Origin: Escherichia coli
GTDB lineage: Bacteria; Pseudomonadota; Gammaproteobacteria; Enterobacterales; Enterobacteriaceae
DNA length: 64,000 nt
Assembly: GCF_003790525.1 (NCBI RefSeq)
Contig: NZ_CP033635.1
Direction: 5' to 3' (one strand)
Every line of letters starts with the position of its first letter. Within the stretch, counting starts at the first letter, position 1. Position numbers: made by a program. This document shows positions 13,725 through 16,700 of the stretch, piece by piece.

Positions 13725-16700
13725 TGATCTGATTCGGGCGCGGTTCTCGCGCCCGTTATTAACAGGTCATTTATCGGAAGACGCCTGCCACAGATTCAGC
13801 TCGCCATCGGCGATATGCTGATCAATCTGCGCCAGCTCCTCGGTGCTAAATGTCAGATTATTCAGCGCCTGCACGTTCTCCTCAAGTTGCTCCGCGCGGC
13901 TGGCACCAATCAATACCGACGTCACGCGATCATCTTTCAGCAACCAGCTTAACGCCATTTGCGCCATTGATTGTCCACGCTGCTGTGCCATTTCATTCAA
14001 TAACCGCAGGCTGTTGAGGTTGGCTTCGGTGAGCATTTTCGGCGTCAGACCACGAACTTTATTCCCTTCACGATGCATCCGTGAATCTTGCGGAATGCCG
14101 TTGAGATATTTTCCGGTCAGCAATCCCTGAGCCAGAGGAGTAAAGGCAATGCAGCCCACGCCGTTATTTTGCAGGGTATCCAGCAGGCCGCTTTTATCCA
14201 CCCAGCGGTTCAGTAAATTGTACGAAGGTTGATGAATTAACAGCGGAATTTTCCACTCGCGCAGTAACTCGACCATTTTTTGCGTCCGCTCTGGCGAGTA
14301 AGAGGAGATCCCGACATACAGCGCCTTACCGCTTTGTACCGCATGAGCCAGCGCAGAGGCGGTTTCTTCCATCGGCGTATTTTCATCGACGCGATGAGAG
14401 TAAAAGATATCGACATACTCAAGCCCCATCCGCTTCAGGCTTTGGTCGAGGCTGGCGAGCAGGTATTTACGTGAACCGCCAGAGCCGTAAGGGCCGGGCC
14501 ACATATCGTAGCCAGCCTTGGTAGAGATAATCAGTTCATCGCGATAAGCGGCAAAATCCTCCCGCAGCAGGCGACCAAAGTTCTCTTCTGCGCTTCCTGG
14601 AGGTGGCCCGTAATTGTTGGCTAAATCAAAGTGCGTAATGCCCAAATCAAACGCTTTACGCAGGATCGCACGCTGTGATTCCAGCGCGTTAACGTGACCG
14701 AAATTGTGCCATAAACCGAGCGATAACGCGGGCAGGCGTAAACCGCTTTTTCCGCAATAGCGGTACTGCATCTGCCCGTAACGTTCGGGATTCGCTAACC
14801 AGACCATGACCTCTCCTTTCCACCGTTCAATTTCGAAACAATGTTTCTAGTTTAGCGATTCGCCAGCGCGTATCCCGTAGTCTGGCTCACAGAGTGACGA
14901 AAAACTGGGCGAAAACACGTGCTTATGCTTTGCTTAAAAAAACACCAGTTGAGGAGTGCAACGATGCCGCGTTTAACCGCCAAAGATTTCCCACAAGAGT
15001 TGTTGGATTACTACGACTATTACGCTCACGGGAAAATCTCGAAACGTGAGTTCCTCAACCTTGCGGCGAAGTATGCGGTAGGCGGGATGACGGCATTAGC
15101 GTTGTTTGATTTGCTCAAGCCAAATTATGCGCTGGCGACTCAGGTAGAGTTTACCGACCCGGAGATTGTTGCTGAGTACATCACGTATCCTTCGCCAAAT
15201 GGTCACGGCGAGGTACGGGGTTATCTGGTGAAACCCGCAAAAATGAGCGGCAAAACGCCAGCCGTGGTGGTGGTGCATGAGAATCGTGGACTGAATCCGT
15301 ATATCGAAGATGTGGCACGGCGAGTGGCGAAGGCGGGGTATATCGCCCTGGCACCTGACGGCTTAAGTTCCGTTGGAGGTTATCCGGGAAATGATGATAA
15401 AGGTCGTGAGCTGCAACAGCAGGTTGATCCAACCAAACTGATGAATGATTTCTTTGCCGCAATTGAGTTTATGCAACGCTATCCGCAAGCGACAGGCAAA
15501 GTGGGTATTACCGGATTTTGCTATGGCGGTGGCGTATCGAACGCGGCGGCTGTCGCGTATCCGGAACTGGCCTGCGCGGTGCCGTTTTATGGTCGCCAGG
15601 CACCCACTGCCGATGTGGCGAAGATTGAAGCGCCTTTACTACTCCACTTCGCGGAACTGGACACCCGAATCAACGAGGGCTGGCCTGCTTACGAGGCGGC
15701 GTTGAAAGCCAATAATAAGGTTTATGAGGCGTATATCTATCCGGGGGTTAATCACGGATTCCATAATGATTCCACGCCCCGTTATGACAAATCTGCCGCC
15801 GATCTTGCCTGGCAAAGGACACTGAAATGGTTCGATAAATATCTCTCCTGATAGGTTTATCTCTTACGGGATTACGTCTTAAACAAGCATGAAAAAATAG
15901 CGTGCGCAAAAGTCGTTCTTTGCCTAAAATATCGCTATATATGACAATATATAGCGAATGAGGTGAACGATGAATAACCATTTTGGTAAAGGCTTAATGG
16001 CGGGATTAAAAGCAACGCATGCCGACAGTGCGGTTAATGTGACAAAATACTGTGCCGATTATAAACGCGGTTTTGTATTAGGCTACTCGCACCGGATGTA
16101 CGAAAAGACCGGAGATCGCCAGCTCAGCGCCTGGGAAGCGGGTATTCTGACGCGCCGCTATGGACTGGATAAAGAGATGGTAATGGATTTCTTTCGTGAG
16201 AATAATTCCTGTTCTACGTTGCGCTTTTTTATGGCCGGTTATCGCCTCGAAAATTGATCAAACATACGTATTATCTTGCTTTAATTAATTACACTAATGC
16301 TTCTTCCCTTCGTTTTAGCGCCCCGCCGCAGTATCATGATATCGATAACCATAATAAATGTGTGGTAAATGGCGCATCGATCGCATTATTGATTTTGCGA
16401 TTGAGGCAAAATATATGCCAGGTCTTCGCAACGGAATAACTATAAATGACTGGAGATAACACCCTCATCCATTCTCACGGCATTAACCGTCGTGATTTCA
16501 TGAAGCTTTGTGCAGCATTAGCCGCCACCATGGGGTTAAGTAGCAAAGCCGCTGCAGAGATGGCCGAATCGGTTACTAACCCGCAGCGTCCGCCAGTTAT
16601 CTGGATTGGCGCGCAGGAGTGCACCGGTTGTACGGAATCTCTGCTTCGTGCAACGCATCCAACGGTAGAAAACCTCGTGCTGGAGACTATCTCTCTGGAG

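What the first reader, a model, noticed from the sequence alone, without database searches (positions are those of the whole stretch)
14919..15851. yghX reading frame is intact here
The dienelactone-hydrolase-family gene between gpr and yghW is an uninterrupted 310-codon ORF with a good Shine-Dalgarno (GAGGAG) before the probable ATG. I recall yghX being annotated as a frameshifted pseudogene in K-12, so this strain would encode the functional enzyme.
Basis: partly seen in the sequence, partly recalled or inferred. Interest (0 to 1): 0.35.

Follow-up and report, generated by a model that had tools for sequence, protein, structure and literature searches.

The report
Intact yghX hydrolase gene, broken in K-12
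This E. coli strain carries the normal, undamaged copy of yghX, a cysteine hydrolase gene that laboratory K-12 strains lost to two small deletions; this is the common, already documented state of the gene, so the finding is correct but ordinary.

Summary
An uninterrupted ORF runs from 14919 to 15851 on the + strand. The real gene starts at ATG 14964, 7 nt after GAGGAG, and encodes 295 aa. It lies between gpr and yghW.

It is a YghX-family, dienelactone-hydrolase-fold protein. Cys186, Asp233, His264 and Glu106 align to the ClcD catalytic residues.

K-12 MG1655 yghX (b4658) is a pseudogene. Relative to the window it lacks TA at 15072-73 (codon 37) and one C at 15433-34 (codon 157). The other 8 coding differences are all synonymous.

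The intact form is the usual one:
- About 78% of 5,426 complete E. coli genomes have the undeleted sequence at the second site.
- About 22-23% carry the K-12-type deletions.
- BL21(DE3), O157:H7 and ST131 are intact, as are orthologs in other Enterobacteriaceae.
- dN/dS between intact alleles is about 0.03-0.04.
- A 2.0 Å crystal structure of the near-identical O157:H7 protein exists (4ZV9).

The natural substrate is unknown.

Side points: the K-12 small protein YqhI is the translated stump of this gene. The conserved first 58 residues resemble a Tat-type export leader with KR in place of RR, which is unproven.

Verdict: already known, low interest.

The parts
14919..14963 (+). In-frame upstream extension of the mechanical ORF (GTG 14919 to the base before the real start); not part of the gene
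   Evidence: the ORF listing starts at the first GTG after a stop. PGAP starts the CDS at the position equal to window 14964 in the 100%-identical record. The NCBIfam model aligns from residue 3 of the ATG-started protein.
14951..14956 (+). Shine-Dalgarno GAGGAG, 7 nt upstream of the start codon
   Evidence: Read directly from the sequence. The same SD and ATG drive translation of the K-12 small protein YqhI, which was detected by chromosomal epitope tagging (PMC6001520).
14964..15851 (+). yghX coding sequence, 295 codons plus stop: YghX-family, dienelactone-hydrolase-fold cysteine hydrolase
   Evidence: NF041440 587.3 bits (cutoff 460), covering residues 3-294. Pfam DLH covers 84-294 and YqhI-like covers 1-36. 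Residues 59-294 differ at 2 positions from PDB 4ZV9, V69F and S135N. Identical to the annotated WP_001137768.1.
14964..15137 (+). Codons 1-58: conserved N-terminal leader. It has a pre-motif helix, an S-K-R-E-F-L Tat-like motif, a moderately hydrophobic stretch, and A-L-A at residues 56-58. It is absent from the crystallised construct.
   Evidence: Hydropathy and motif positions. The aligned position is RR in 38 of 52 diverse homologs, with F30 in 40 and A56/A58 in 32/33. TIGR01409 passes its cutoff for two RR homologs. 4ZV9 aligns from residue 59. Against a simple leader: AF2 predicts the region ordered, with pLDDT 91-96.
15039..15056 (+). Codons 26-31, S-K-R-E-F-L: twin-arginine-like motif with Lys in the first Arg position
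   Evidence: KR is conserved across 112 of the 120 closest enterobacterial homologs.
15072..15073 (+). TA of codon 37 (TAT, Tyr): present here, deleted in K-12 (first, frame-breaking lesion)
   Evidence: Alignments. The K-12 allele at this site was found in 1,251 of 5,426 genomes and the undeleted allele in 3,490.
15433..15434 (+). CC in codon 157: K-12 has a single C (second lesion, which returns K-12 to the original frame)
   Evidence: Alignments. The undeleted allele was found in 4,221 genomes and the deleted allele in 1,199.
15279..15281 (+). Glu106 codon (GAG), equivalent to ClcD Glu36
   Evidence: HMMER alignment to 4U2C, which uses ClcD numbering; position check.
15519..15521 (+). Cys186 codon (TGC), the catalytic nucleophile in the G-F-C-Y-G-G motif, equivalent to ClcD Cys123
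   Evidence: Cys is present in 46 of 52 representatives.
15660..15662 (+). Asp233 codon (GAC), the triad acid, equivalent to ClcD Asp171
   Evidence: Asp is present in 48 of 52 representatives.
15753..15755 (+). His264 codon (CAC), the triad base, equivalent to ClcD His202
   Evidence: His is present in 40 of 52 representatives.

Best explanation
Window 14964-15851 is the intact, ancestral allele of E. coli yghX. It encodes a 295-residue alpha/beta hydrolase of the dienelactone-hydrolase family. By homology, it should hydrolyse an ester, lactone or thioester bond through a Cys186-His264-Asp233 triad, with Glu106 in the position of ClcD Glu36. The natural substrate is unknown.

The K-12 copy is a pseudogene. 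A 2-bp deletion in codon 37 shifts the frame and terminates translation after 47 residues. That stump is the K-12 'small protein' YqhI. A later 1-bp deletion in codon 157 restores the frame without rescuing the gene.

Shown here: gene integrity, family membership, positions of the catalytic residues, the K-12 lesions and their frequency, and purifying selection.

Inferred: catalytic competence and chemistry.

More tentative, my estimate about 0.5: the conserved first 58 residues act as a Tat-type export leader with KR instead of RR. On that reading the folded enzyme is delivered to the periplasm and the leader is cleaved after Ala58. The confidence value given applies to the core claim, not to this leader sub-claim.
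For: ORF, SD and start codon. The CDS is identical to one annotated in a public genome. NF041440 587 bits against a cutoff of 460; Pfam DLH 165 bits. Residues 59-294 match the crystal structure 4ZV9 from O157:H7 Sakai, and the AF2 model superposes on it at 1.0 Å (PMC8533429). The triad and Glu align to ClcD C123/D171/H202/E36.

MG1655 has pseudogene b4658 plus yqhI b4755. The two deletions are mapped, and all 8 remaining coding SNPs are synonymous.

Population counts: ΔTA in 1,251 genomes, ΔC in 1,199, undeleted second site in 4,221 of 5,426. Two strains carry ΔTA only, which gives the order of events. Intact 294-298 aa orthologs occur in Citrobacter, Pseudescherichia, Enterobacter, Kosakonia and Leclercia. 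dN/dS is 0.034-0.041 between intact alleles. BL21(DE3) is intact. The shared start site is translated in K-12 as YqhI (PMC6001520) and its transcript rises at low Mg2+ (PMC11429745).

For the leader: RR at the aligned position in 38 of 52 homologs and conserved AxA; TIGR01409 above its cutoff in two homologs; Pro/Ala-rich linkers of variable length in four homologs; the crystallised construct omits residues 1-58.
Against: No enzymatic activity on a natural substrate has been reported. The purified E. coli protein (EcoDLH, 4ZV9) had no detectable activity on the phosphotriesters paraoxon or FDDEP (bioRxiv 10.1101/2025.10.30.685675). That speaks only to a promiscuous reaction.

The gene neighbourhood is unrelated to chlorocatechol degradation and is not conserved in distant homologs, so 'dienelactone hydrolase' is a fold name here, not a function.

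Against the Tat sub-claim: the window protein has KR, not RR, and no Tat profile matches it. The leader is unusually conserved in sequence, and its RR-to-D65 spacing is 36 residues in 30 of 41 homologs. AF2 predicts it ordered, with pLDDT 91-96 and three short helices. I found no paper linking DLH proteins to Tat export.
Confidence: 0.9

Rival explanations
1. The first 58 residues are not an export signal. They form a folded N-terminal three-helix element (the Pfam 'YqhI-like' region) that packs on the hydrolase domain, for example as a lid or regulatory module. On this reading YghX is a cytoplasmic enzyme.
For: AF2 predicts residues 1-60 with pLDDT 91-96 as helices 11-21, 27-37 and 44-51, with pTM 0.93. 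The region is highly conserved in sequence, including a near-invariant His22. The spacing from the R-R position to Asp65 is fixed at 36 residues in 30 of 41 homologs. No Tat or Sec profile hits the window protein. Lys36 and Asp49 sit inside the supposed hydrophobic core, and the maximum 15-residue hydropathy is only 1.55.
Against: The x-R-R-x-F-L motif, followed by an Ala/Gly-rich hydrophobic stretch and AxA, is what a Tat signal looks like, and it occurs in most homologs. TIGR01409 passes its cutoff in two homologs. Some homologs insert long Pro/Ala linkers, and one has a lipobox-like L-G-C after the hydrophobic stretch, which is hard to fit into a folded domain. The catalytic domain crystallises and folds without the leader. 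High pLDDT on isolated helices is common and I could not inspect contacts.
Confidence: 0.3
2. The leader is an uncleaved Tat-type signal anchor, as in Rieske proteins. It would tether the hydrolase to the periplasmic face of the inner membrane.
For: N-termini of homologs give weak matches to the Rieske Tat-signal family PF10399 (best E 3.5e-4, 20.3 bits, below the cutoff of 24). Strong conservation of the whole leader fits a retained element better than a discarded one.
Against: The hydrophobic stretch is short, contains Gly-Gly, and carries charged residues. Conserved A-x-A at 56-58 fits signal peptidase cleavage. All the profile matches are below threshold.
Confidence: 0.12
3. The ORF is intact but the gene is functionally dispensable or silent, and is on its way to loss as in K-12.
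For: About a quarter of sequenced genomes, including natural isolates from people, dogs, pigs, poultry and water, live with the pseudogene. The pseudogene allele also occurs in a mosaic form in a Nissle-type strain. No sigma-70 promoter consensus was found on the + strand upstream of the gene.
Against: dN/dS of 0.03-0.04 between deeply diverged intact alleles shows continuing purifying selection. Orthologs are conserved across Enterobacteriaceae at 85-92% identity. The same start site is demonstrably translated in K-12 (PMC6001520).
Confidence: 0.08

Closest known systems
E. coli YghX (NCBIfam NF041440 'YghX family hydrolase'; e.g. WP_001137768.1 in strain CFSAN061771)
   Same: Identical DNA over 14808-15969 and an identical 295-aa protein, in the same gpr-yghX-yghW-hybO context.
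   Different: Nothing. The window gene is this gene.
[quoted passage not shown] Sakai' (2.0 Å), called EcoDLH in bioRxiv 10.1101/2025.10.30.685675
   Same: Residues 59-294 match except V69F and S135N. The AF2 model superposes at 1.0 Å over 237 columns, TM 0.99.
   Different: The crystallised chain lacks residues 1-58. The protein had no detectable phosphotriesterase activity, and I found no reported natural substrate.
E. coli K-12 MG1655 yghX pseudogene (b4658) with the small-protein gene yqhI (b4755)
   Same: Same locus and neighbours. The promoter region, SD, ATG and the first 36 codons encode the same amino acids. Only 8 synonymous SNPs in the coding region.
   Different: K-12 lacks TA at codon 37 and one C at codon 157. 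Translation stops after 47 residues, giving YqhI = YghX residues 1-36 plus 11 out-of-frame residues. The window has neither deletion.
ClcD dienelactone hydrolase of Pseudomonas knackmussii (PDB 1DIN and variants; EC 3.1.1.45)
   Same: Same alpha/beta-hydrolase DLH fold (Foldseek E about 1e-16, TM 0.84), with the Cys-His-Asp triad and Glu36 equivalent conserved.
   Different: Only about 25% identity. ClcD is a leaderless 236-aa enzyme encoded in a chlorocatechol pathway operon. YghX has a 58-residue N-terminal extension and no aromatic-degradation neighbours.
Klebsiella pneumoniae putative DLH (PDB 3F67, KpDLH)
   Same: It is the next closest solved structure (E 2e-23, 28% identity), with the same G-F-C-x-G-G nucleophile motif.
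   Different: It belongs to a different subfamily and the alignment starts only at residue 82. KpDLH showed weak FDDEP activity, whereas EcoDLH showed none.

Membership tests
YghX family hydrolase (NCBIfam NF041440) | Whole-protein score at or above the curated cutoff of 460 bits, with end-to-end coverage of the 292-position model | tested here: met
   587.3 bits; residues 3-294 match model positions 1-292.
YghX family hydrolase (NCBIfam NF041440) | Orthologous chromosomal position in E. coli, between gpr and yghW/hyb | tested here: met
   ORF layout and the annotation of the identical region. MG1655, BL21(DE3) and ST131 have the same order.
Dienelactone hydrolase family (Pfam PF01738, alpha/beta hydrolase fold) | Pfam DLH domain above the gathering score | tested here: met
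   164.8 bits against a cutoff of 21; residues 84-294 cover profile positions 1-217.
Dienelactone hydrolase family (Pfam PF01738, alpha/beta hydrolase fold) | Cys-His-Asp catalytic triad plus the Glu that partners the Cys (ClcD C123, H202, D171, E36) | tested here: met
   Cys186, His264, Asp233 and Glu106 align column for column with ClcD numbering in 4U2C.
Dienelactone hydrolase family (Pfam PF01738, alpha/beta hydrolase fold) | DLH-type alpha/beta fold | tested here: met
   98% identical to the solved 4ZV9. The AF2 model matches 4ZV9 at TM 0.99 and 1DIN at TM 0.84.
True dienelactone hydrolase (carboxymethylenebutenolidase, EC 3.1.1.45) | Encoded with chlorocatechol / modified ortho-cleavage pathway genes | tested here: not met
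   The neighbours are gpr, yqhA, yghW and hybOA. Distant homologs show no conserved pathway context.
True dienelactone hydrolase (carboxymethylenebutenolidase, EC 3.1.1.45) | Hydrolysis of cis/trans-dienelactone to maleylacetate | not testable with these tools
   This needs an enzyme assay. The only activity data I found are negative phosphotriesterase tests.
Tat (twin-arginine) exported proteins | S/T-R-R-x-F-L-K motif in the n-region | tested here: inconclusive
   The window has S-K-R-E-F-L-N, with KR. RR sits at the aligned position in 38 of 52 homologs. A natural KR Tat signal is documented for Salmonella TtrB (PMC1182353).
Tat (twin-arginine) exported proteins | Match to a Tat signal profile (TIGR01409 / Pfam TAT_signal) | tested here: not met
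   No hit for the window N-terminus at E up to 10. Two RR homologs pass, at 18.5 and 17.1 bits against a cutoff of 16.7.
Tat (twin-arginine) exported proteins | Moderately hydrophobic h-region followed by an A-x-A peptidase site | tested here: met
   Residues 30-51 are moderately hydrophobic, Lys52 follows, and A-L-A sits at 56-58. A56 and A58 are conserved in 32 and 33 of 52 homologs.
Tat (twin-arginine) exported proteins | tatABC-dependent export of the folded protein | not testable with these tools
   This needs fractionation in wild-type versus tat-mutant cells.
K-12-type yghX pseudogene allele | ΔTA in codon 37 and/or ΔC in codon 157 | tested here: not met
   Both sites are undeleted in the window.

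The most novel reading that the evidence does not exclude
YghX is a real Tat substrate with a natural Lys-Arg motif and an unusually conserved leader. It would have been missed by inventories of E. coli Tat substrates because those were built on K-12, where the gene is broken inside its own leader, and because RR-based predictors reject KR. As a corollary, the Mg2+-starvation-induced K-12 'small protein' YqhI would be the translated stump of that leader rather than an evolved small protein.
Probability: 0.35. Interest if true: 0.3.

Novelty: already known. Interest (0 to 1): 0.12.

Why it matters
It matters little as a discovery. The K-12 pseudogene (b4658), the intact gene in other E. coli, an NCBI family model and a crystal structure are all public.

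Three practical points follow:
- 'yghX is a pseudogene' holds for K-12 and its relatives, about 22-23% of complete genomes, but not for E. coli in general. BL21(DE3) has an intact copy, yet one engineering paper treats the BL21(DE3) locus as a neutral pseudogene site (PMC12617950).
- The K-12 small protein YqhI should be read as YghX residues 1-36 plus a frameshift tail when its expression or knockout phenotypes are interpreted.
- Most E. coli encode a conserved cysteine hydrolase of unknown substrate, possibly periplasmic, that cannot be studied in K-12.

Tried and rejected
1. Function from gene context. The neighbourhoods of three distant homologs (P0122, P0124, P0191) share nothing with each other or with E. 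coli, so they give no clue to the substrate.

2. Tat and Sec profile searches on the window N-terminus found nothing at E up to 10. Only two RR homologs pass TIGR01409.

3. The promoter and terminator consensus scan of 14700-16100 gave hit counts equal to shuffled expectation, with none on the + strand near yghX. It says nothing about regulation.

4. Literature on Tat export of DLH proteins: three papers contained the terms but none of those I read linked them, and 'dienelactone' plus 'Tat substrate' returned nothing.

5. I predicted the full-length structure to judge the leader. The model is confident, but coordinates are not exposed, so contacts between the leader and the catalytic domain could not be inspected. 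The AlphaFold-database fold library was unavailable.

6. The idea that the second K-12 deletion is a compensatory rescue is rejected. The shifted frame between the two sites contains many stops, the first after 11 codons.

7. The idea that the K-12 lesions are laboratory artefacts is rejected. They occur in many natural isolates, and ΔTA-only intermediates exist.

8. The 1990s proposal that YghX might be a cPHB polymerase, based on its GxCxG motif (cited in PMC3709699), was not pursued. That motif is the standard DLH nucleophile elbow.
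Full report
**Observation.**
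The ORF listing reports an ORF at 14919..15851 on the + strand, 310 aa from a GTG. GAGGAG lies at 14951-14956 and an ATG at 14964, 7 nt downstream. From that ATG the gene is 14964-15851, 295 codons plus stop. The 15 codons upstream are only the mechanical extension back to the previous stop.

The flanking ORFs are a 346-aa gene on the minus strand (13767-14807) and a 95-aa gene (15970-16257), followed by hybO and hybA. A megablast of 14808-15969 against 5,426 complete E. coli genomes matched 5,425 of them. One record, CFSAN061771, was 100% identical. There PGAP annotates gpr, yghX (WP_001137768.1, 'YghX family hydrolase', the same 888-bp CDS), yghW, hybO and hybA.

**What the gene is.**
The 295-aa product scores 587.3 bits against NCBIfam NF041440 'YghX family hydrolase' (cutoff 460), covering residues 3-294. 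Pfam finds the dienelactone hydrolase domain at 84-294 (164.8 bits) and a short 'YqhI-like' family at 1-36.

Residues 59-294 match PDB 4ZV9 except V69F and S135N. [quoted passage not shown] An AlphaFold2 model built here has mean pLDDT 96.6. It superposes on 4ZV9 at 1.0 Å (TM 0.99) and on Pseudomonas ClcD structures at TM about 0.84.

In the HMMER alignment to 4U2C, which uses ClcD numbering, four residues align column for column:
- Cys186, in G-F-C-Y-G-G, aligns to ClcD residue 123.
- Asp233 aligns to Asp171.
- His264 aligns to His202.
- Glu106 aligns to Glu36.

**The K-12 comparison.**
MG1655 (NC_000913.3) annotates yghX as pseudogene b4658. It overlaps a separate 144-bp gene, yqhI (b4755). 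A K-12-derived genome carries the PGAP note 'frameshifted'.

Alignment shows two deletions in K-12 relative to the window:
- TA at 15072-73, in codon 37.
- One C of the CC at 15433-34, in codon 157.

The first deletion shifts the frame and a stop follows 11 codons later. The second returns the sequence to the original frame, but the 120 codons between them contain many stops, so it does not rescue the gene. The other 8 coding differences between the window and MG1655 are all synonymous in the ancestral frame. That points to a recent loss.

**How common each state is.**
I used 48-50-bp queries centred on each deletion site, so that the opposite allele cannot supply the 28-base exact word that megablast needs.

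| Site | Undeleted allele | K-12-type deletion |
|---|---|---|
| 1 (TA, codon 37) | 3,490 genomes | 1,251 genomes |
| 2 (C, codon 157) | 4,221 genomes | 1,199 genomes |

At site 1 the remaining genomes are not scored, presumably because nearby SNPs break the seed. At site 2 the two alleles together account for 5,420 of the 5,425 genomes that have the locus.

So about 22-23% of complete genomes carry the K-12-type lesions and up to about 78% are undeleted. Other, rarer lesions were not surveyed, and laboratory K-12 derivatives inflate the deleted class. Carriers of the deletions include isolates from people, dogs, pigs, poultry and water, so the lesions are natural.

Two strains, S1-JOR-02-A and O68:H12 97.3, have the K-12 SNP haplotype with ΔTA only and are annotated as frameshifted. 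ΔTA therefore came first and ΔC arose later within that lineage.

Intact copies are annotated in ST131, a mastitis isolate and BL21(DE3). The BL21(DE3) copy is 293/295 identical to the window protein. Intact 294-298-aa orthologs at 85-92% identity occur in Citrobacter, Pseudescherichia, Enterobacter, Kosakonia and Leclercia. Intact is therefore the ancestral state.

Between the window and two divergent intact alleles there are 39 synonymous differences against 5-6 non-synonymous ones, giving dN/dS of 0.034-0.041. The gene is under purifying selection where it is intact.

**How it probably works.**
By homology, YghX is a cysteine-nucleophile alpha/beta hydrolase acting on an ester, lactone or thioester. 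The name 'dienelactone hydrolase' describes the fold only. The neighbours (gpr, yqhA, yghW, hyb) have nothing to do with chlorocatechol degradation, and distant homologs have unrelated neighbourhoods.

The only activity data I found come from a preprint that purified 'EcoDLH' (4ZV9). It detected no hydrolysis of the phosphotriesters paraoxon or FDDEP and noted a modified or oxidised active-site cysteine in the crystal (bioRxiv 10.1101/2025.10.30.685675). The substrate is unknown.

Expression signals are live. The same SD and ATG produce the K-12 protein YqhI, detected by chromosomal tagging (PMC6001520). Its sequence is YghX residues 1-36 followed by 11 frameshift residues. Its RNA-seq signal and ribosome footprints rise under Mg2+ limitation independently of PhoQP (PMC11429745).

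**The N-terminal 58 residues.**
This part is absent from 4ZV9 and from all solved homologs. It reads S26-K-R-E-F-L31, then a moderately hydrophobic stretch, then Lys52, then A-L-A at 56-58.

*Evidence for a Tat-type export leader:*
- In 52 full-length representatives from a 1.8-billion-protein library, the K27-R28 position is RR in 38 and KR in 2. F30 is conserved in 40, and A56 and A58 in 32 and 33.
- The N-termini of two RR homologs pass the TIGR01409 twin-arginine signal model.
- Four homologs carry Pro/Ala-rich linkers after the hydrophobic stretch.
- A natural KR Tat signal is documented for Salmonella TtrB (PMC1182353).

*Evidence against:*
- No Tat profile matches the window protein itself.
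- The leader is unusually conserved, including a near-invariant His22.
- The RR-to-Asp65 spacing is exactly 36 residues in 30 of 41 homologs.
- AlphaFold2 predicts the region as three ordered helices with pLDDT 91-96.

I favour a Tat-type leader at about 0.5. The alternatives are a folded cytoplasmic N-terminal element at about 0.3 and an uncleaved anchor at about 0.12. None of these affects the main verdict.

**Comparison with what is known, and novelty.**
The window gene is E. coli yghX. It is identical to an annotated RefSeq protein and meets every tested criterion for the YghX family and the DLH fold family. It is not shown to be a true EC 3.1.1.45 enzyme, and it fails the pathway-context criterion for one.

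The K-12 pseudogene is well known, to the point of being a routine 'neutral' integration site in W3110 and MG1655 engineering (PMC7677707). Nothing here is new in kind, so the novelty class is 'already known' and interest is low.

The residual points of interest are modest. The pseudogene label does not transfer to BL21(DE3), where one paper nevertheless uses it (PMC12617950). YqhI is a pseudogene stump, a link not mentioned in the main text of either YqhI paper. And there is the possible KR-type Tat leader.

Noticed in passing
window 14964-15071 (codons 1-36); MG1655 locus L003:3598-3741: The K-12 'small protein' YqhI (b4755, 47 aa) is YghX residues 1-36 plus 11 out-of-frame residues created by the ΔTA frameshift. 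It was detected by tagging and is reported as induced at low Mg2+. The main texts of the two papers that study it (PMC6001520, PMC11429745) do not mention the yghX pseudogene. Pfam family PF23678 'YqhI-like' is in effect the N-terminus of full-length YghX-type hydrolases.
   Followed up: partly
L008 (NZ_CP172017.1, strain EcN_Sk) 256-1140; corresponds to window 14964-15851: This Nissle-named strain carries both K-12-type deletions in a mosaic allele. The allele is K-12-like throughout except for a patch of about 100 bp (window 15315-15410) that matches the ST131/B2 haplotype. This suggests homologous recombination has moved or patched the pseudogene allele across lineages.
   Followed up: partly
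window 15932-15957: A perfect palindrome with 11-bp arms, TCGCTATATAT-GACA-ATATATAGCGA, sits in the yghX-yghW spacer and ends 4 nt before the yghW Shine-Dalgarno. It is present in 7 of the 8 E. coli loci checked. The 124-nt spacer folds with z = -4.3 against shuffles. It could be an operator or an RNA hairpin controlling yghW. Its function is unknown.
   Followed up: partly
L011 (BL21(DE3), NC_012971.2) 5290-6177: BL21(DE3) has an intact yghX (WP_001424373.1; P66L and A282S relative to the window). A 2025 engineering paper nevertheless inserts a gene at 'the pseudogene yghX locus' of BL21(DE3) (PMC12617950), so that insertion disrupts an intact ORF.
   Followed up: yes
window 15287-15410: Synonymous differences between the window (or K-12) haplotype and the ST131/BCE049 haplotype cluster densely here, with about 20 in 125 bp. 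This pushes gene-wide dS to 0.217 and suggests an old recombination tract or a divergent segment inside yghX.
   Followed up: no
window 14808-15969 versus E. coli genomes: One of the roughly 6,100 matching places lies on a record classed as a plasmid, and some genomes have 2-3 copies of the region. One genome, IAL7255, matched only the last 19% of the query, which suggests a deletion of most of yghX. None of these was examined.
   Followed up: no
window 16446-16556 (hybO N-terminus): The neighbouring hybO product begins MTGDNTLIHSHGINRRDFMKLCAALAATMGLSSKAAA, which reads as a twin-arginine leader. It is a useful in-window contrast to the KR motif of YghX.
   Followed up: no
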